From Candidatus Auribacterota bacterium (GTDB lineage Bacteria > Auribacterota > UBA6266): a stretch of DNA of 6,624 nucleotides. The translations under genes were made by a program, and so were the position numbers. The DNA is taken from contig JAGLRQ010000093.1 in NCBI GenBank assembly GCA_023136205.1, positions 1 to 6,624 of the forward strand, written 5' to 3'. Of this stretch, positions 211 to 6,514 are shown piece after piece. How positions within the stretch are numbered: position 1 is the stretch's first letter; the number at the start of each line of letters is the position of its first letter. The notes under the pieces were generated by a model, which searched no databases, had not been told where the DNA came from, and was given only the letters and a program-made list of their open reading frames with translations.

Positions 211-252
211 TTTTTTTACTTTTCTTATTTCTTTCTTTAAAATCATTTATTA
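211..252 (-). repeat. Copy A of a 42-nt conserved element (5' leader/promoter-like), upstream of the truncated gene at 1-188
   Basis: tttttttacTtttcttatttctttctttaaaatcatttatta at 211-252 matches 4160-4201 at 41 of 42 positions (the only difference is 220 t versus 4169 c). In gene sense it reads TAATAAATGATTTTAAAGAAAGAAATAAGAAAAGTAAAAAAA and ends 22 nt before the ATG at 188. A cctttacc motif follows about 10 nt further on in both copies (262-269 and 4212-4219). Confidence 0.8.
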
Positions 253-611: not shown

Positions 612-1370
612 TTATTTGGTTTTCTTTTTCTCTTTTCTATATAATTTATCGACATCGTAGGCATCTAAAACACGATTGTATATTCTAACTTCATCCACAA
701 GGCCTTTCCACCATCTGTTTGGATCCTGCCCATAACCATTACCTATTGCTACATTTCTAAATGTCAATGACAGTAGTCTCCATTCCCCAGCGGTTCCCGG
801 AATATTTGGATGAACTGATGAATCTGGATCTGGATATGGTGTTGTTAAAACTAACGCACCATTTAAATACGCGTATGTATTTATATCATCCCATACAAAA
901 ACAACATGATACCATAGATTTGGTTGGAGTGAATTAGTAATTACTCCACTTCCAAAACCCAAAGCTCCCCAGACAAACATTCCTGTTGAATATTCTTCAA
1001 ATCTAATACAATCATCCCAACCCGCGAAATCTGTAGAAAATGGATTACGATAATTTTCTACAACTTCTGGATTCATCCAAAATGAGATAGAACCAATTTC
1101 ATTATATCCTAAATCTCCAGCTATAATTGAATCCTCAGAACCATCAAAATAATAAGCTTTATCTTTATCATTTTTTCCAGTTGGTACTTGTAAAGCGCCA
1201 GTTATTGTACCAGGGTGATTACCCATGCTTTCATCTGGAACTTGATCATCTATGGGATCTAAATCAAATGAATAATATAATATTAATCCATCATCAAAAT
1301 GGTCCGCGTATAAATAATTAAGGAAACAAAAAGAAACCAAAACAAAAATAATTAATACAGATTTTTTCAT
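612..1370 (-). CDS. Secreted LamG-like (concanavalin A-like lectin/glucanase, Laminin_G_3-type) jelly-roll domain protein, 252 aa
   Basis: - Start and stop: ATG at 1370..1368, TAA at 614..612. SD AAAGGAGA (1378-1385 on +) lies 8 nt upstream.
- Signal peptide: MKKSVLIIFVLVSFCFLNYLYA.
- LamG_3 hallmarks: GLILYYSFD...DESMGNHPGTITGA, AYYFDGSEDSI, GSISFWM, WYHVVFVWD, AYLNGALV, and the C-terminal signature WWKGLVDEVRIYNRVLDAYDVDKLY. Confidence 0.9.
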   Translation of the reverse strand: MKKSVLIIFVLVSFCFLNYLYADHFDDGLILYYSFDLDPIDDQVPDESMGNHPGTITGALQVPTGKNDKDKAYYFDGSEDSIIAGDLGYNEIGSISFWMNPEVVENYRNPFSTDFAGWDDCIRFEEYSTGMFVWGALGFGSGVITNSLQPNLWYHVVFVWDDINTYAYLNGALVLTTPYPDPDSSVHPNIPGTAGEWRLLSLTFRNVAIGNGYGQDPNRWWKGLVDEVRIYNRVLDAYDVDKLYRKEKKKTK

Positions 1371-1628: not shown

Positions 1629-1650
1629 CTGTCCCCTTTACTCCCTTTAC
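1629..1650 (-). repeat. GTAAAGG micro-repeat at the stop codon of the peptidase-like gene; shares a 13-mer with 4206-4218
   Basis: ctgtcccctttac (1629-1641) is identical to 4206-4218. The unit ccctttac occurs twice in tandem (1634-1641 and 1643-1650, period 9). The TAA stop (1647-1649) is embedded in the second unit (minus sense G-TAA-AGGG). Confidence 0.5.
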
Positions 1651-2789
1651 ACACTGGGAGGCTTTTCCTCTATAGGGAGCATTCTCCAAAACAGATAAAT
1701 GATAATGATGAGTATTAGGAGAATGATACCCCACTTAATATTTTTCCTAGTGCTATGCCAATCCTTAGCATCATTCAATAAATCTTCGAAAGAGGGTACT
1801 CCAACACTAGCAAGTATTTGATCTATGGTGCCCGCTTCTATTGCATGCTTGATAAATCCGTACAGACTCTCTTGTCCAATCTTAGATTCAAGGTAGTTAA
1901 ATACAATTTTATATTCTTTGTACTCTTTCGGGTCTCTAACAGTATATGTAATATATACGTACCCTCCTATAGTTGGGCTCACTTCAGTTGCAGATTCTGT
2001 TCCACCGCTGCCACTGAAATAGATTGCACATCCCTCATGAAACCAAAGAGGCAATTTTGAACGATCTAATAAACTCATGTTAGAATTAATATACACATGA
2101 ACTAATTCATGAGAGACTGTTTTAGGTAACATACGTTTCTTCAGTTGTTTCTTGGCGACACTTACCTCTGGTTCTGAGAGAACGGCAACATATCTGGACA
2201 GAAGTGTTACTGCTTTAGTATTCTCACTTTTAAATGCCGGTTGGACCGCTTTAGGCATGAGTTCCTTACTAGGGTAATACCTAATATATACAAATCCCTT
2301 AGGGACGGGCAAGCCAACTTTTTCTCTAAGCTTGACTATCGCAGGATCTGTAGTAGTCTCCAAATTGACTAATTCGCGTTTGGCACGCAGTAGATTCAAT
2401 ATACCTTTTCTCTCAGTGATTTTGAAAGTGGTGTCCTCATAGGTACCAGCGAAAATAATGAAATATTCAAATAGTGTTTTGACTGCTTTTAAGATATTAG
2501 GCAATGTAAGTTCTGACTCTATATACGATAGGCAAACGAAAATTTTCTCGTAAGACTGCTGTCTTTCTCGAATTTCCTCTTCAGTCATTAGGACCGGATT
2601 GCTCAAGTTGTCAAACCAATTGTCGGAACTTATAAACTCCCCTAATTCTGGGCACAGCACCAAAGCAAGTTTTATGATAGTTTCATCTTCGGTTTCTTGG
2701 GCCATAGCATACGGAGTCTGGCTGGTAAAGAAACAAAGAATCAATAATGTCCAGAGAACGACACGAGGGAATTTAGTTACAACATACAT
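1647..2789 (-). CDS. Putative zinc metallopeptidase-like protein (gluzincin, Peptidase_MA-like HExxH...E) with an N-terminal signal peptide and a C-terminal transmembrane anchor
   Basis: - Zinc motif: HELVH at 2097-2111, then 20 residues to LPLWFHEGCAIYFSG. This matches the HExxH + downstream Glu pattern (W..EG.A.YF) of MA-clan/Peptidase_MA_2-type proteins.
- C-terminal TM helix: WGIILLILIIIIYLFW, followed by a short tail.
- Start choice: the track ORF begins at a GTG (2996) that lies 59 nt inside the serpin gene and has no SD. The internal ATG at 2789 is preceded by AAGGAG (2801-2806 on +, 11-nt spacing) and yields the signal peptide MYVVTKFPRVVLWTLLILCFFTSQTPYAMA|QE. ATG 2816 (MSRKGASKK...) is an alternative.
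- Stop: TAA at 1649..1647. Confidence 0.8.
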   Translation of the reverse strand: MYVVTKFPRVVLWTLLILCFFTSQTPYAMAQETEDETIIKLALVLCPELGEFISSDNWFDNLSNPVLMTEEEIRERQQSYEKIFVCLSYIESELTLPNILKAVKTLFEYFIIFAGTYEDTTFKITERKGILNLLRAKRELVNLETTTDPAIVKLREKVGLPVPKGFVYIRYYPSKELMPKAVQPAFKSENTKAVTLLSRYVAVLSEPEVSVAKKQLKKRMLPKTVSHELVHVYINSNMSLLDRSKLPLWFHEGCAIYFSGSGGTESATEVSPTIGGYVYITYTVRDPKEYKEYKIVFNYLESKIGQESLYGFIKHAIEAGTIDQILASVGVPSFEDLLNDAKDWHSTRKNIKWGIILLILIIIIYLFWRMLPIEEKPPSV

Positions 2790-2879
2790 CTTTTTGCTGG
2801 CTCCTTTTCGGCTCATGCTTGGCACAAGCCCGGAAGCAACTAATTTATTTCTGTAATCATCTGAACCATAAATACTGCC

Positions 2880-2901
2880 GGAATTAATGGGAATTAATGG
2901 G
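2880..2901. repeat. Tandem decamer (ggaattaatg x2 plus partial gg) in the serpin/peptidase spacer; each unit carries the palindrome ATTAAT
   Basis: Read directly: g gaattaatgg gaattaatgg g at 2880-2901. The two ATTAAT hexamers are exactly 10 bp apart (one helical turn). The repeat lies 38-57 nt after the serpin stop and about 90-110 nt upstream of ATG 2789. Confidence 0.6.
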
Positions 2902-2937
2902 GATGTCCCAAAGAGTGCCCTCTTTTGTCCCACGTTT

Positions 2938-4158
2938 TTATTTTGTCGGGTCAGCAATTCTTCCGATAAATAAAATGCTTCCTGTTTGACTTTCACGAAT
3001 CAAGAAAACAAAGGGATGATCTGCTTGGAACAATAAAGTTTTGCTAATACTGCCTTTTGCCATAGCAACTGCTGTTGCGGCAGCAGCTTCTGTCCCTTCC
3101 TCATTGACATGAACAAAAGCTTTATGAACAACCTTGCTTATAAAAAGATCTTTTTTTCCTGTTATCCCGGAGAAATTAGCTGGTGGAAGTGAAAAAGCGC
3201 TTGGCATACCCATGCTGCCAAGCGTTTTCGATAGTTCAAATTCACAAGTAGTTTTAAACTTAGGTAATTTTATAAGTATTTCTGACTTGTATGAATTGGA
3301 GAGTTCAGCTATCCAGTTTTTTACATTATCATTTGTTAGGTTTTTTTCAAGCTTTGTTAACCCATTAATTTTTTTGGGCAAAAAGATAATCATGGATAAA
3401 TCATTGCCTTCATAAGGCAGTTCTATCGCGCTAAAACCGCCAAAATCTCTAAATTTAAGTTCTGATTTTTTGCTCATCATGGAAACTTTTATTGTTTTAT
3501 CAGGGGAAACATAAAAATCAGCATCCATTGTTCTTTTTTTATAGAATGGACTCAACCAGTTTCCTTTGAAATAGATTGCGTTGCAGAGAACCAATGTTGT
3601 AAGTGGATCAATCATACCCGGCTTGATTAATTCTTTGATTTTCTGTTGTGTTTCGGTTTCTATCCAGGTATTAATAGTTATTCTTGCGGCTTCGGTTTCT
3701 TTTTCAAAATTAACGAAATTTAACGCCGTGCTATAATACTTTTTAGTTATATCAGAAAAAGTGTCCATAAAATGATAACCCTCTTCCGCCCACACTGAAT
3801 TAGCTATGCTGAGTCTGATATGGCCTTTATTTTGGATAGCATTTAATTTTGACTGGAGATTGGAAAATGATGCATGCAATGGCTCCTGGCTTAAAGAAAA
3901 GCGCAAAACTTCTGCCATTTCTTTTTCAGTTTGTCCTTTTGCGCCGGCGTAAGTCATAGCAAGTGCTGTGGAGATACTGTAGGGTGAAAAAAATAAATTC
4001 CCTTCTGCATCTTTAAGTTCTTGATATAAATCAAAACCAAAATCGCTGTTATCTTGTACTGCTGTTTGTAGATTACCATTTGTATCTGCAAAAGAAAGGA
4101 AAGCCGTTGAAGAGATAAATACCACAATAATCAGGATAAGCGTAAATTTAATTTTCAT
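2938..4158 (-). CDS. Secreted serpin (serine protease inhibitor family I4), 406 aa, inhibitory-type reactive-centre loop
   Basis: - Start and stop: ATG at 4158..4156, TAA at 2940..2938.
- Signal peptide: MKIKFTLILIIVVFISSTAFLSFA|D.
- Serpin signatures: NLFFSPYSISTALAMTYAGAKGQT, LVLCNAIYFKGNW, SMIIFLP, the hinge EEGTEAAAATA (3070-3102), FQADHPFVFLIRE, and the C-terminal ILFIGRIADP. Confidence 0.95.
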   Translation of the reverse strand: MKIKFTLILIIVVFISSTAFLSFADTNGNLQTAVQDNSDFGFDLYQELKDAEGNLFFSPYSISTALAMTYAGAKGQTEKEMAEVLRFSLSQEPLHASFSNLQSKLNAIQNKGHIRLSIANSVWAEEGYHFMDTFSDITKKYYSTALNFVNFEKETEAARITINTWIETETQQKIKELIKPGMIDPLTTLVLCNAIYFKGNWLSPFYKKRTMDADFYVSPDKTIKVSMMSKKSELKFRDFGGFSAIELPYEGNDLSMIIFLPKKINGLTKLEKNLTNDNVKNWIAELSNSYKSEILIKLPKFKTTCEFELSKTLGSMGMPSAFSLPPANFSGITGKKDLFISKVVHKAFVHVNEEGTEAAAATAVAMAKGSISKTLLFQADHPFVFLIRESQTGSILFIGRIADPTK

Positions 4159-4159
4159 T

Positions 4160-4201
4160 TTTTTTTACCTTTCTTATTTCTTTCTTTAAAATCATTTATT
4201 A
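4160..4201 (-). repeat. Copy B of the 42-nt conserved element, abutting the serpin start codon
   Basis: tttttttacCtttcttatttctttctttaaaatcatttatta at 4160-4201 is 41/42 identical to 211-252. In gene sense it reads TAATAAATGATTTTAAAGAAAGAAATAAGAAAGGTAAAAAAA, followed by A and the serpin ATG. The AAAGG inside it is the only SD-like sequence before the serpin start. Confidence 0.8.
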
Positions 4202-4211
4202 GGCGCTGTCC

Positions 4212-4250
4212 CCTTTACCTTCCTTTACCTTCCCTTATTTTCCTTATTTT
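4212..4250. repeat. Two adjacent short tandem duplications between the 756-aa gene and the serpin: (cctttacctt)x2 then (ccttatttt)x2
   Basis: cctttacctt occurs at 4212-4221 and 4222-4231. ccttatttt occurs at 4233-4241 and 4242-4250. The second ccttatttt unit contains the TAA stop of the 756-aa gene (4244-4246), and the first supplies a second in-frame TAA two codons later. The minus sense reads AAAATAAGGAAAATAAGGGAAGGTAAAGGAAGGTAAAGGGGACAGCGCC, with four GGA trinucleotides in 49 nt. Confidence 0.7.
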
Positions 4251-6514
4251 TTACCTTCTGAATTTTTAACAAAAAGTGCATGGATTTTTTTATCAAATTC
4301 AGCAAGTAAATCTTTATCTTTTTGGCTTTCATCAAAAGCCGACTTTGATACTTCATATTCACCTGTTTCAACATCAACATAGGCAAAAAATTTATTTCCG
4401 TGTTTAAGCGCCAGAATTTTCGAATTCTCAGACCAAATTAAAGTTCCCTTCGTAGAACTGGAAAACACTTTCATAGGAATGTCATCAGGAGACTTTGATA
4501 TATAAATTATATAGCTGGGATCAAGAAATGATGTATCTTCAACATAAACACGATATTTCCCGTTAGGGGCAACTGATTTCATAATAATTCTCCCAATATC
4601 AAAGAAACTTGGTCCGGCAAATTCCATAAAGGTTTTCCCGTCTTTCGAGATAAAATGGGTCCTTGGCAATTCAAACCAATCCTTTTCAGCAGGAATCCCA
4701 TCTTTTGGCAAGTGAATACATGAAACTGTTACAATTTTTTCACCCTTAACATTGGTATCCGTGGTACTGATATCTAAGAGATAATCTACATCTGGAATTT
4801 TAAACTGGGACCAACTTTTACCTCCATTGTTTGATTCTTCTATAATGTAGGGAATACCATTTTCCGGATGATTCGTTTTTTTTATGCCCCAAATGAATAA
4901 ACGATTCTTAGGCAAGAAAAACATACCTTTAGGATAGTAAGGAATATTATCGCGTATTATTGTCCAATTATTCCTCATAGGACTATCTTCGGAAGTTAAC
5001 AGCACAGGAGGTGTACTGTAGAGCAACCAATACTTCTCACCATAAGACAAGGCTGACAGAGCTTGATTATACGGAGGTAAAATTTCATCTTTTACTACAG
5101 GACACTTAGCTTCCCAATATTTAACATTATGTTTAAACCAATATTTGCGAGTTTTATGTCCAACTTTTGGCAGTGTAGCAAAGTCCCTTTCTTGTTTTTT
5201 CCATGCAATTTGTTGATATCGTGCAGTGTGCCCATCAATCAAAACTTGTATATCCGCCATAATTTTATCCGACCATTCTCTGTAAGGTTGAGGAAGAATG
5301 ATTGAAACTTGGTCAAACTGAATTTCATATCCCGATTTTACATCGCTTGCACAGAAGTTGAGCTTATCATTACTGGTACATCCTTCAGGCAAAATAAGAG
5401 AAATATCCAGTTTTTCGATATTTGCATTTGCCGGTGCAGTTGTACTCAATCTAAATCCTAATCTATCAGAATTCTCAGAGTAATGACCGTACATCGACAG
5501 TTGAGGCAATTTAATACGGCGTTTACTATAATATTCGTTATAATTTTTCTCATAAATTTCCAAATAGTATTCTTCATATTCTTCTTTTTCTACTAAACTG
5601 CCAATCCCGGTTTCAACCTTTCCGGTTAGATTACCAAAAAGATCATAACTTTCAGCTTTTTCTAAAACATGGTTTTCTCCGAACTTTCTGTAAAGCATCA
5701 ATGTCCCGGATGGGTACCATCTTTTTCCGCCTTCTTTTGCTTTCTTTCCGTTCTCGTAATACCGGACAGATGGTCCGACTTGCTTTCCGTCAATATAATT
5801 ACTCGTTGATCGAATTTGTCCATTTCTATACCAACCTGTCGATTTCCCATGTTTAAAGCCGTCTCTGTAATTCTGCTCGATGTTTTTCTGTCCACCAGAC
5901 ATCCATTTAGTCATTGTGCCATGCAGTTTCGCATCCCTGTAGTGAGACTCTTTAAACTTCAGGCCTTTCTCATAATCTCTATATAAAATTTCTAGCCCTT
6001 CTTTTACACCATTCTTATAATTCGCGAATCCTATAATCTTAGCGCGTGTATTTTTCATCGGTCTATCAAACAGAACCCTTTTCCCTTTCCCATTCTCTAT
6101 TTGAGATAACATTATTCCAGAATCATTAAAGTAGGAGCCTGTTAAAAGTTTTCCGTCTTTAATGTTTTCTTCAAATTTAATTTTGCCATCAGGATACCAT
6201 TTTTTTTGGAGTCCGTGTTTGAGAGAGTTCTTATAGGATATAAAACTTGCAGGCATGCCGTTAAGGTATAAATGTAGTACCGATCCATCTTTCATTGCCT
6301 TTTGCATAATACAAATTTTTTCTGCCCGGGACATGTCTTTATAAGGCTTCATAGTTGCAAGTGGGTTGTAAATAAAGATATTTGGATCTTTAAGACATTT
6401 TTCAACGAATGCTCGTGCTGCAGTTTCATGGCTACTCTCTTCCGCATACCCCAATATGGTCATTAGGGTTAATCCTAAAATTATCACTGTAAGATTCTTT
6501 GGAATTGATTGCAT
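4244..6514 (-). CDS. Secreted multidomain protein, 756 aa: N-terminal MORN-variant (MORN_2/YwqK-like) repeats, Tyr/Glu-rich linker, uncharacterised middle region, Asp-box-containing beta-propeller-like C-terminal region
   Basis: - Start and stop: ATG at 6514..6512, TAA at 4246..4244.
- Signal peptide: MQSIPKNLTVIILGLTLMTILGYA|EE.
- Residues ~80-280 (5675-6277) carry repeated [YW]-x-[DN]-G-x(5-7)-Y-x-[DN]-G-K-x-x-G units, for example KHGLQKKWYPDGKIKFEENIKDGK, NYRDGFKHGKSTGWYRNGQIRSTSNYIDGKQVGPSVRYYENGKK.
- Linker: EEYEEYYLEIYEKNYNEYY (5516-5587).
- SNNGGKSW (4811-4834) fits the Asp-box/BNR pattern S-x-[DN]-x-G-x-[ST]-W.
- The C-terminal TLIWSENSKILALKHGNKFFAYVDVETGE looks like a propeller blade.
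- Only a weak SD (GGAAG) is present. Confidence 0.88.
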   Translation of the reverse strand: MQSIPKNLTVIILGLTLMTILGYAEESSHETAARAFVEKCLKDPNIFIYNPLATMKPYKDMSRAEKICIMQKAMKDGSVLHLYLNGMPASFISYKNSLKHGLQKKWYPDGKIKFEENIKDGKLLTGSYFNDSGIMLSQIENGKGKRVLFDRPMKNTRAKIIGFANYKNGVKEGLEILYRDYEKGLKFKESHYRDAKLHGTMTKWMSGGQKNIEQNYRDGFKHGKSTGWYRNGQIRSTSNYIDGKQVGPSVRYYENGKKAKEGGKRWYPSGTLMLYRKFGENHVLEKAESYDLFGNLTGKVETGIGSLVEKEEYEEYYLEIYEKNYNEYYSKRRIKLPQLSMYGHYSENSDRLGFRLSTTAPANANIEKLDISLILPEGCTSNDKLNFCASDVKSGYEIQFDQVSIILPQPYREWSDKIMADIQVLIDGHTARYQQIAWKKQERDFATLPKVGHKTRKYWFKHNVKYWEAKCPVVKDEILPPYNQALSALSYGEKYWLLYSTPPVLLTSEDSPMRNNWTIIRDNIPYYPKGMFFLPKNRLFIWGIKKTNHPENGIPYIIEESNNGGKSWSQFKIPDVDYLLDISTTDTNVKGEKIVTVSCIHLPKDGIPAEKDWFELPRTHFISKDGKTFMEFAGPSFFDIGRIIMKSVAPNGKYRVYVEDTSFLDPSYIIYISKSPDDIPMKVFSSSTKGTLIWSENSKILALKHGNKFFAYVDVETGEYEVSKSAFDESQKDKDLLAEFDKKIHALFVKNSEGKK

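What the first reader, a model, noticed from the sequence alone, without database searches (positions are those of the whole stretch)
1647..4158. Secreted inhibitory-type serpin immediately upstream of a membrane-tethered gluzincin-like protein: candidate extracytoplasmic protease-control pair
**Seen in the sequence.** Two consecutive same-strand genes are separated by a spacer of about 120-150 nt with no convincing terminator. The first encodes a signal-peptide serpin with an intact inhibitory hinge (EEGTEAAAATA). The second encodes a protein with a signal peptide, about 190 residues of unrecognisable sequence, an HELVH...(20 aa)...E zinc-site pattern and a C-terminal TM anchor.

**Established knowledge.** Serpins trap serine proteases (and some cysteine proteases) through the reactive-centre loop. 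They do not inhibit metalloproteases, whereas metalloproteases are classic inactivators of serpins by loop cleavage.

**Inference.** The neighbour is unlikely to be the serpin's target. Possible relationships are:
- a processing or inactivating partner for the serpin;
- a second arm of an envelope-protection module, loosely analogous to the alpha-2-macroglobulin/PbpC pairing described in bacteria;
- simple co-location in a secretome island.

No serine protease is encoded in the window, so the serpin's target is either outside it or exogenous. I do not recognise this pairing as a described system.
Basis: partly seen in the sequence, partly recalled or inferred. Interest (0 to 1): 0.7.

Follow-up and report, generated by a model that had tools for sequence, protein, structure and literature searches.

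The report
Serpin beside unrelated membrane zinc peptidase
A secreted serine-protease inhibitor (serpin) and a membrane-anchored zinc-peptidase-like gene do sit next to each other in this uncultured bacterium, but they are neighbours in no other lineage examined, so the adjacency looks like chance and not a new protease-control system.

Summary
On the minus strand there is a 406-aa signal-peptide serpin (2938-4158) with the inhibitory hinge EEGTEAAAATA. A 148-nt spacer follows, then a 380-aa protein (1647-2789) with a signal peptide, HELVH, a third-ligand Glu 21 residues after the second His, and a C-terminal TM helix.

The HExxH protein belongs to an unnamed family of about 200 clusters at 50% identity. 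Profile-profile comparison shows it is a divergent branch of Pfam Peptidase_MA_2 (gluzincins). Foldseek found no solved relative.

- None of 160 independent loci encoding the HExxH family carries a serpin.
- None of 22 loci from 8 serpin-orthologue lineages (59-82% identity) carries an HExxH family member.
- The two closest serpin orthologues are also named Aureabacteria. They are flanked by a cupin gene upstream and PFK or DUF3750 downstream.
- The closest HExxH homologue (82% nt, homology confined to the CDS) is a single-gene integron cassette in a GC-rich contig.

The adjacency occurs only in contigs carrying the identical protein. The best reading is two independent secreted-protein genes in a run of four co-oriented genes whose products start with signal-peptide-like sequences. 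Interest is low.

The parts
2938..4158 (-). Serpin CDS, 406 aa
   Evidence: It matches Pfam PF00079 at E 2.4e-125 over the full-length profile. The closest solved relative is chloropin 8GXV, E 4.7e-96. A 100%-identical protein is named 'serpin family protein [Candidatus Aureabacteria bacterium]'.
4087..4158 (-). Serpin signal peptide (residues 1-24, ...SFA|D)
   Evidence: Read directly from the translation; no predictor was run.
3040..3102 (-). Serpin hinge and reactive-centre loop, EEGTEAAAATAVAMAKGSISK (residues 353-373)
   Evidence: Translation. The hinge is almost invariant in 120 orthologues, while residues 367-371 are variable. Chloropin's P1 Arg aligns with Gly369, with Lys368 at P2 (PMC10090351).
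2790..2937 (-). 148-nt intergenic spacer. It contains a tandem CCATTAATTC x2, a 9-bp hairpin, and AAGGAG 11 nt before the ATG.
   Evidence: Sequence. No terminator-like site. Fold z -0.9.
1647..2789 (-). CDS of a membrane-tethered gluzincin-like protein, 380 aa (divergent Peptidase_MA_2 branch)
   Evidence: 26 homologues. 202 clusters at E<=1e-30. Alignment A1 has invariant H227, E228, H231 and E252. hhalign against bona fide PF13485 proteins gives 98.8% probability.
2700..2789 (-). Signal peptide of the HExxH protein (residues 1-30, ...AMA|Q)
   Evidence: Translation; assigned by inspection.
2448..2690 (-). N-terminal all-helical domain (residues 34-114), function unknown
   Evidence: The AlphaFold model has helices 34-45, 47-53, 58-63, 70-93 and 98-114. 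Ten-residue-block mean pLDDT is 78-92 across this region. A low-confidence linker follows at 121-133.
1785..2390 (-). Predicted catalytic domain (residues 134-335): beta-sheet, HExxH helix, WFHEG helix, beta-hairpin and three helices
   Evidence: The domain-only model has pLDDT 91.2 and pTM 0.88. hhalign aligns residues 168-332 with Peptidase_MA_2 proteins. There is a weak flagellinolysin hit over residues 217-337.
2034..2111 (-). Zinc-site motif HELVH-x20-E (H227, E228, H231 ... E252 in LPLWFHEG)
   Evidence: Translation. These residues are invariant in 24 family members.
1677..1739 (-). C-terminal transmembrane helix (residues 351-371), followed by a 9-residue tail
   Evidence: Translation. 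Other members carry ankyrin, HEAT or Zn-ribbon domains after this helix, which implies the tail is cytoplasmic.
4160..4201 (-). 42-nt element directly 5' of the serpin ATG. It is 98% identical to 211-252, which lies 5' of the next-but-two gene.
4244..6514 (-). Upstream neighbour (context): 756-aa MORN_2-repeat protein whose N-terminus reads as a signal peptide
612..1370 (-). Downstream neighbour (context): 252-aa Laminin_G_3 (LamG) protein whose N-terminus reads as a signal peptide

Best explanation
These are two functionally independent genes that happen to be neighbours in one lineage of Candidatus Aureabacteria (Auribacterota). They lie in a run of four co-oriented genes whose products all start with signal-peptide-like sequences.

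**Gene 1** is an ordinary prokaryotic inhibitory serpin of the chloropin-like "hub" type.
- It is exported by a Sec signal peptide.
- It presumably traps a serine protease by the standard suicide-substrate loop-insertion mechanism.
- The target is encoded elsewhere or is exogenous.

**Gene 2** belongs to an unnamed, sporadically distributed family that is a divergent branch of the Peptidase_MA_2 gluzincins. The predicted topology is a cleaved signal peptide, an extracytoplasmic helical N-domain, an HExxH/E zinc-peptidase domain, and one C-terminal TM helix with a short cytoplasmic tail. It most likely acts as a membrane-tethered extracytoplasmic zinc endopeptidase on an unknown substrate.

**Shown:** domain identities, motif conservation, lack of conserved linkage, and solo mobility of gene 2.

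**Inferred:** export, topology, catalytic activity, and independence of function.
For: **Identity of the two genes.**
- Serpin.
- The hinge matches the inhibitory consensus ExGTEAAAA (PMC8233489). It is conserved in 120 orthologues while the specificity residues vary.
- Gluzincin: H, E, H and E are invariant.
- 18 of 24 members give sub-threshold Peptidase_MA_2 hits.
- The family HMM hits a bona fide PF13485 protein (81.8 bits to Pfam) at E 1.3e-11.
- hhalign gives 98.8% probability, E 7.7e-17, over 157 columns.

**No linkage.**
- hmmsearch with a serpin profile finds no serpin in 160 independent HExxH-family loci.
- 34 of the 54 full-length loci have at least 1.5 kb of upstream sequence, enough to show a serpin gene.
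- The family has no conserved neighbour. The most frequent neighbour cluster occurs in 7 of 54 loci, and the neighbours are functionally heterogeneous.
- Eight serpin-orthologue lineages each have a different context, and none has an HExxH protein.

**Solo mobility of gene 2.**
- The closest homologue, in L081, shares 82% nt identity strictly over the CDS.
- That gene is 42-45% GC in a 56-69% GC contig.
- It lies just downstream of the 3' end of an integron-integrase gene (TIGR02249, E 7.6e-22).
- It is followed by a GCCTAAC...GTTAGGC hairpin with z -5.35.
- dN/dS is 0.34.

**Separate upstream element for the serpin.** The serpin has its own 5' element, which is shared with a different gene and not with the HExxH gene.
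Against: - The two genes are on the same strand, only 148 nt apart, and no terminator-like site lies between them. Co-transcription in this organism is therefore not excluded.
- Both products are predicted to reach the same compartment.
- Lack of conservation argues against an obligate module, but it cannot rule out a recently evolved, lineage-specific interaction.
- Foldseek did not confirm an MA-clan fold, so peptidase activity rests on sequence evidence only.
- Only 8 serpin lineages were sampled.
Confidence: 0.8

Rival explanations
1. A lineage-specific functional pair. The two genes are co-transcribed. The membrane-tethered gluzincin processes or inactivates the serpin by cleaving its reactive-centre loop, or it clears serpin-protease complexes. 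This would give a tunable extracytoplasmic protease-control unit.
For: - The genes are on the same strand, 148 nt apart, with no terminator-like site between them.
- Both are predicted to be exported.
- By established knowledge, metalloproteases are known to inactivate serpins by loop cleavage.
- The arrangement is stable across 7 contigs encoding the identical protein, from several samples.
Against: - No co-occurrence in 160 HExxH loci or in 22 serpin loci.
- The two closest serpin orthologues (81-82% identity), named Aureabacteria, lack the neighbour.
- The closest HExxH homologue travels alone as an integron cassette.
- The serpin's 5' element is shared with a different gene.
- The terminator scan finds no more sites in the window than in shuffles (3 against 4.3 expected), and none lies in an intergenic region. 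Its silence in the spacer therefore carries little weight.
Confidence: 0.07
2. The HExxH protein is not a peptidase. It would be a catalytically inert or non-proteolytic membrane protein, for example a sensor or scaffold using the zincin fold. The cytoplasmic repeat tails in relatives would point to signalling or anchoring.
For: - Foldseek finds no solved peptidase relative.
- Pfam and NCBIfam hits are all below the curated thresholds.
- Relatives carry ankyrin, HEAT, TPR or Zn-ribbon tails that suggest protein-protein interaction.
Against: - All four catalytic or zinc-binding residues (H, E, H, E) are invariant across 24 diverse members. The WFHEGxAxYFSG helix is also conserved, which is typical of active gluzincins.
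- The family is clearly homologous to Peptidase_MA_2.
- dN/dS of 0.34 indicates purifying selection.
Confidence: 0.1
3. The stretch is a mobile cassette array, either an integron or a cluster of attC sites without an integrase. The adjacency would then result directly from cassette insertion.
For: - The closest HExxH homologue is an integron cassette.
- The four genes are co-oriented with short spacers.
- A GGTAAAGGGGACAG motif recurs in the intergenic regions: 3 hits against 0.11 expected.
Against: - No RYYYAAC...GTTRRRY pair occurs anywhere in the window on either strand.
- Homology to the cassette stops at the CDS ends, so no attC is shared.
- No integrase lies within +/-10 kb.
- The genes' GC content (34-39%) matches their surroundings.
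Confidence: 0.03

Closest known systems
Chloropin (Chlorobium limicola serpin, PDB 8GXV) and the 'hub-like' prokaryotic inhibitory serpins
   Same: It is the best solved match, E 4.7e-96 over residues 37-404. It has the same ExGTEAAAA hinge that marks inhibitory serpins (PMC8233489). Chloropin is experimentally inhibitory (PMC10090351).
   Different: Chloropin has Arg at P1. Here the aligned residue is Gly369, with Lys368 at P2, so target specificity cannot be transferred. This protein's N-terminus reads as a Sec signal peptide. Nothing has been tested biochemically.
Pfam Peptidase_MA_2 (PF13485) / M1-type gluzincins (clan MA(E))
   Same: It has HExxH plus a downstream Glu in a W-x-x-E-G-x-A-x-Y helix. 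Profile-profile homology to bona fide PF13485 proteins is 98.8% probability. The M1 and DUF1570 models also give weak hits at the same site.
   Different: It scores below the Pfam gathering threshold (16.8 against 32.4 bits). It carries an extra ~80-residue helical N-domain and a C-terminal TM anchor. No solved structural relative was found by Foldseek.
Flagellinolysin (NCBIfam NF033876, proteolytic flagellin HExxH domain)
   Same: There is a weak similarity, E 3.2e-6, over residues 217-337, which extends beyond the bare motif.
   Different: The score is 26.9 bits against a 205-bit cut-off. The protein has no flagellin domains and is not a member.
Bacterial alpha-2-macroglobulin / PBP1c envelope-protection pair
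   Same: An exported protease inhibitor lies next to an envelope-associated enzyme.
   Different: From my own knowledge, not tested here, that pairing is defined by conserved co-occurrence across many genomes. The present pairing is conserved in none.
Integron gene cassettes
   Same: The closest homologue of the HExxH gene (L081) has cassette anatomy: it lies just downstream of the 3' end of an integron-integrase gene and is followed by an attC-like hairpin.
   Different: The window copy has no attC-like site, and no integrase lies nearby.

Membership tests
Serpin superfamily (Pfam PF00079), inhibitory type | Full-length serpin domain | tested here: met
   419 bits, E 2.4e-125, covering profile positions 2-370 of 370. 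161 PDB serpin sequences match at E<=1e-40.
Serpin superfamily (Pfam PF00079), inhibitory type | Hinge consensus P17-P9 ExGTEAAAA with small residues at P12-P9 | tested here: met
   EEGTEAAAA at residues 353-361. The consensus is quoted from PMC8233489. The hinge is conserved in 115-120 of 120 orthologues.
Serpin superfamily (Pfam PF00079), inhibitory type | Defined P1 residue or target specificity | tested here: inconclusive
   Counting from the hinge and alignment to chloropin's P1 Arg both place P1 at Gly369, with Lys368 at P2. The loop is one or two residues longer than in many orthologues.
Serpin superfamily (Pfam PF00079), inhibitory type | Forms an SDS-stable covalent complex with a protease | not testable with these tools
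   Needs biochemistry.
Gluzincin metallopeptidase, clan MA(E) / Pfam Peptidase_MA_2 | HExxH motif plus a third zinc ligand Glu on a following helix | tested here: met
   HELVH at 227-231 and E252 in WFHEG. All are invariant in 24 members. Both motifs lie on predicted helices, 211-237 and 248-259.
Gluzincin metallopeptidase, clan MA(E) / Pfam Peptidase_MA_2 | Scores above the Pfam gathering threshold for PF13485 | tested here: not met
   16.8 bits against a cut-off of 32.4. 18 of 24 members hit the model only below threshold.
Gluzincin metallopeptidase, clan MA(E) / Pfam Peptidase_MA_2 | Homology to bona fide family members beyond the motif | tested here: met
   hhalign gives 98.8% probability, E 7.7e-17, over 157 columns against proteins that pass PF13485 at 81.8 and 52.7 bits. 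The family HMM hits them at E 1e-11 to 2e-6.
Gluzincin metallopeptidase, clan MA(E) / Pfam Peptidase_MA_2 | Structural similarity to a solved MA-clan peptidase | tested here: inconclusive
Gluzincin metallopeptidase, clan MA(E) / Pfam Peptidase_MA_2 | Zinc-dependent peptidase activity | not testable with these tools
   Needs biochemistry.
Conserved serpin + metallopeptidase gene pair (the proposed module) | Adjacency recurs beyond close relatives | tested here: not met
   0 of 160 HExxH-family loci contain a serpin. 0 of 22 loci from 8 serpin-orthologue lineages contain an HExxH member or any HExxH...E ORF over 150 aa. The pair occurs only in 7 contigs encoding the identical protein.
Conserved serpin + metallopeptidase gene pair (the proposed module) | Co-transcription | not testable with these tools
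   There is no terminator-like site in the spacer. However, the scan finds no more sites in the window than in shuffles and none in an intergenic region, so this is uninformative.
Conserved serpin + metallopeptidase gene pair (the proposed module) | Physical or enzymatic interaction | not tested
   No multimer prediction tool was available.
Integron cassette (window copy) | attC site (RYYYAAC ... GTTRRRY imperfect hairpin) flanking the gene | tested here: not met
   No such pair occurs on either strand of the window. The homologue in L081 does have one.

The most novel reading that the evidence does not exclude
In this one Aureabacteria lineage, the serpin and the membrane-tethered gluzincin have recently been brought together and are co-transcribed. 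The gluzincin would modulate the serpin, for example by cleaving its reactive-centre loop. That would make it a nascent bacterial metalloprotease-controlled serpin switch.
Probability: 0.05. Interest if true: 0.55.

Novelty: new member of a known kind. Interest (0 to 1): 0.15.

Why it matters
If the pair were a real module, it would be the first bacterial system in which a metallopeptidase is genetically coupled to a serpin. It would also give a handle on the still enigmatic roles of prokaryotic serpins. The evidence says it is not such a module, so the main value is negative: this adjacency should not be propagated as a "system".

Two modest by-products remain:
- An unnamed, sporadically distributed family of membrane-tethered Peptidase_MA_2-like proteins. 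It has about 200 clusters at 50% identity and variable cytoplasmic ankyrin, HEAT or Zn-ribbon tails.
- An example of such a gene captured as an integron cassette.

Tried and rejected
2. **Sequence search of PDB with the family profile.** It returned only noise, with M1 and collagenase hits at E 0.2-0.6.
3. **Conserved neighbours of the HExxH family as a clue to function.**
   - No neighbour was conserved; the best cluster is a PD40 beta-propeller protein in 7 of 54 loci.
   - The other neighbours are an aldolase, an ABC-2 permease, a CDP-alcohol transferase, ANT(6), and LysM and META proteins.
4. **Cassette-array hypothesis for the window.** It was rejected because there are no attC-like motif pairs.
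5. **Integron context for a serpin orthologue (L175).**
   - The nearby recombinase scores best as Xer-like and is below all thresholds.
   - No clear attC family was found.
   - The lead was not pursued.
6. **Structured RNA or terminator in the spacer.** Nothing significant was found.
7. **Literature.** No paper links serpins with Omnitrophica. Nothing describing a serpin/metallopeptidase gene pair surfaced among the 15 top-ranked papers.
Full report
**What is in the window.** All sizeable ORFs lie on the minus strand.
- A 756-aa MORN_2-repeat protein lies at 4244-6514.
- A 406-aa serpin lies at 2938-4158.
- A 380-aa HExxH protein lies at 1647-2789.
- A 252-aa Laminin_G_3 protein lies at 612-1370.
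- A small gene starts at about 187 and runs off the left end.
- GC content is 27-41% throughout.
- Identical or 99%-identical proteins in public data are labelled Candidatus Aureabacteria bacterium.
- The same four-gene arrangement is found in seven contigs from several samples of one study, one of them 538 kb long. The adjacency is therefore not an assembly artefact.

**The serpin.**
- It matches the full Pfam Serpin profile at E 2.4e-125.
- Its best solved relative is chloropin from Chlorobium limicola, PDB 8GXV, at E 4.7e-96. Chloropin is an experimentally inhibitory serpin with Arg at P1 (PMC10090351).
- The hinge EEGTEAAAATA (residues 353-363, nt 3070-3102) fits the inhibitory consensus P17-P9 ExGTEAAAA. 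Spence et al. report this consensus for almost all "hub-like" prokaryotic serpins (PMC8233489).
- In 120 orthologues at 56-100% identity the hinge is essentially invariant. Residues 367-371 vary, as expected for a specificity loop.
- Counting from the hinge and aligning to chloropin both put P1 at Gly369, with Lys368 at P2. I therefore do not call the target specificity.
- The N-terminus reads as a Sec signal peptide. This is by inspection only.

**The HExxH protein: start codon and motifs.**
- The start is ATG 2789. AAGGAG lies 11 nt upstream. Nucleotide homology with the closest homologue begins at 2794. Orthologues start at the same Met.
- The 449-aa GTG-start ORF overlaps the serpin and is probably over-extended. 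The GenBank homologue has the same length.
- The spacer is therefore 148 nt.
- The protein has a signal peptide, HELVH at 227-231, E252 within LPLWFHEG, and a C-terminal TM helix at 351-371.

**The HExxH protein: family.**
- Word-indexed search found 26 homologues, none with a Pfam domain over the HExxH region. The only precomputed domains are ankyrin repeats in two members.
- An exhaustive profile search found 888 cluster representatives at E<=0.001 and 202 at E<=1e-30.
- H227, E228, H231 and E252 are invariant, and the WFHEGxAxYFSG helix is conserved.
- Several members carry ankyrin, HEAT or zinc-ribbon domains after the TM helix. This fits a cytoplasmic C-terminus and an extracytoplasmic catalytic domain.
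- Curated models hit only weakly: Peptidase_MA_2 at 16.8 bits against a cut-off of 32.4, plus M1 and DUF1570. 18 of 24 members hit Peptidase_MA_2 below threshold. Flagellinolysin hits at E 3.2e-6 over residues 217-337.

**The HExxH protein: link to Peptidase_MA_2.**
- More distant relatives fetched from genomes do pass PF13485, at 81.8 and 52.7 bits.
- The family HMM hits these proteins at E 1e-11 to 2e-6.
- hhalign between the two alignments gives 98.8% probability, E 7.7e-17, over 157 columns.
- The family is therefore a divergent branch of the Peptidase_MA_2-type gluzincins.

**The HExxH protein: structure.**
- AlphaFold models are confident. The full-length model has pLDDT 84.7 and pTM 0.80. 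The domain model has pLDDT 91.2 and pTM 0.88.
- The order of elements is strand, helix, strands, long HExxH helix, Glu helix, beta-hairpin and three helices. This is compatible with a thermolysin-like core.

**Is the pairing conserved? HExxH side.**
- I fetched 80 loci from species-representative genomes and 80 from metagenomes that encode family members. They come from Acidobacteriota, Chloroflexota, Armatimonadota, Planctomycetota, Cloacimonadota and others.
- tblastn with the serpin found nothing.
- A serpin HMM searched against all six-frame ORFs also found nothing.
- 34 of the 54 loci with full-length matches have at least 1.5 kb of upstream sequence.
- The family has no conserved neighbour at all. 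The most frequent neighbour cluster occurs in 7 of 54 loci, the gene is often preceded by a gene on the opposite strand, and the neighbours are functionally heterogeneous.

**Is the pairing conserved? Serpin side.**
- I examined eight orthologue lineages at 59-82% identity, 22 loci in total. They include the two closest orthologues, both named Aureabacteria.
- Flanks differ in every lineage: Cupin_2 upstream with PFK or DUF3750 downstream, a methyltransferase, DUF6577/AbiEii, Sde182_NH-like, DUF3786 and others.
- None contains a family member or any HExxH...E ORF over 150 aa.
- The two profiles co-occur only in the seven contigs that encode the identical protein.

**The closest homologue travels alone.**
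- The nearest non-self relative of the HExxH gene is in L081 (FWPU01023381.1), at 72% aa and 82% nt identity.
- It shares homology with the window strictly from 5 nt before the ATG to the stop codon.
- There the gene is 42-45% GC in a contig of 56-69% GC.
- It lies just downstream of the 3' end of an integron-integrase gene (TIGR02249, E 7.6e-22 for the 49-residue fragment).
- It is followed by GCCTAAC-N57-GTTAGGC, which folds as an attC-like hairpin. The bottom-strand z-score is -5.35, and 0 of 200 shuffles fold as well.
- dS is 0.44 and dN/dS is 0.34, which indicates a fairly recent transfer under purifying selection.
- So this gene is exchanged and maintained as a single-gene unit without a serpin.
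- The window itself has no attC-like motif pair, and no integrase lies within 10 kb. It is not a cassette array.

**Regulatory hints.**
- No terminator-like site lies in the spacer. However, the scan finds no more sites in the window than in shuffles (3 against 4.3 expected) and none in an intergenic region, so this says little.
- The spacer's predicted fold is ordinary, z -0.9.
- The 42 nt directly upstream of the serpin ATG are 98% identical to a stretch upstream of the small gene at the left end.
- A GGTAAAGGGGACAG motif recurs in the intergenic regions.
- If the repeated 42-nt element is regulatory, which is not shown, it links the serpin to that small gene and not to the HExxH gene.

**Conclusion.**
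- The sequence-level observation is right.
- The "protease-control pair" reading is not supported, by its own refutation criterion.
- The best explanation (confidence about 0.8) is two independent genes in a run of co-oriented genes for apparently secreted proteins: a standard exported inhibitory serpin, and a membrane-tethered member of a divergent Peptidase_MA_2 branch.
- A lineage-specific functional link cannot be excluded, because the genes share a strand, a compartment and a short spacer. Nothing positively supports such a link; I give it about 5-7%.
- Novelty is limited to new members of known kinds.

Noticed in passing
window 4160-4201 and 211-252 (minus strand): A 42-nt element occurs twice at 98% identity: TAATAAATGATTTTAAAGAAAGAAATAAGAAAGGTAAAAAAA. 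One copy abuts the serpin ATG. The other lies about 25 nt upstream of the ATG (about 187) of the 135-aa gene that runs off the left end. Weaker similarity continues upstream (GGTAAAGG...). It may be a shared leader or promoter, or a trace of recombination.
   Followed up: partly
window ~4206-4219 and ~1630-1643 (minus strand); L174 9940, 12517, 14843: The motif GGTAAAGGGGACAG recurs just after the stop codons of the MORN and HExxH genes. It has 3 hits in 21 kb against 0.11 expected. It is an intergenic repeat of unknown role.
   Followed up: partly
L081 1-152, 320-330, 1579-1646: The closest homologue of the HExxH gene is an integron cassette. An integron-integrase C-terminus lies upstream on the same strand, GTTAGGC core sites are present, and a well-folding attC hairpin lies downstream. 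The gene is low-GC in a GC-rich contig that also carries a second, degenerate integrase-like ORF at 4630-5283.
   Followed up: yes
window 2790-2996: The 449-aa GTG-start ORF (GTG at 2996; the GenBank homologue has the same length) overlaps the serpin 3' end by 59 nt. Homology boundaries, the ribosome-binding site and the orthologue starts all indicate that the true start is ATG 2789 (380 aa).
   Followed up: yes
window 2880-2899 (minus strand): A perfect tandem duplication CCATTAATTC-CCATTAATTC lies in the serpin/HExxH spacer. Its significance is unknown.
   Followed up: no
HExxH family members P0015, P0017, P0191, P0212, P0220, P0005/P0006, P0016, P0021/22: Family members carry variable cytoplasmic tails after the TM helix: ankyrin repeats, HEAT repeats, or zinc ribbons. 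One member (P0251) has TPR repeats, mostly N-terminal. This suggests the extracytoplasmic peptidase domain is coupled to cytoplasmic partners in some lineages.
   Followed up: partly
L018, L021, L093, L099 (adjacent); L003, L005, L013 (nearby): A ~1,100-aa protein with PD40 beta-propeller, CarboxypepD_reg and a C-terminal TM helix lies downstream of the HExxH gene in 7 of 54 loci. It is the only recurrent neighbour and may reflect lineage-specific synteny.
   Followed up: partly
L175/L176 1-6330: One Omnitrophica serpin orthologue sits in a run of small co-oriented hypothetical genes next to a divergently transcribed Xer/IntI-like tyrosine recombinase. A GTTAGGC lies about 100 nt after the serpin stop. 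This is a possible but unproven cassette-like context.
   Followed up: partly
L167-L173 (the two closest serpin orthologues, both named Aureabacteria): In both of the closest serpin orthologue lineages, a 114-aa Cupin_2 gene lies immediately upstream of the serpin on the same strand. This is the only partially recurrent serpin neighbour seen.
   Followed up: no
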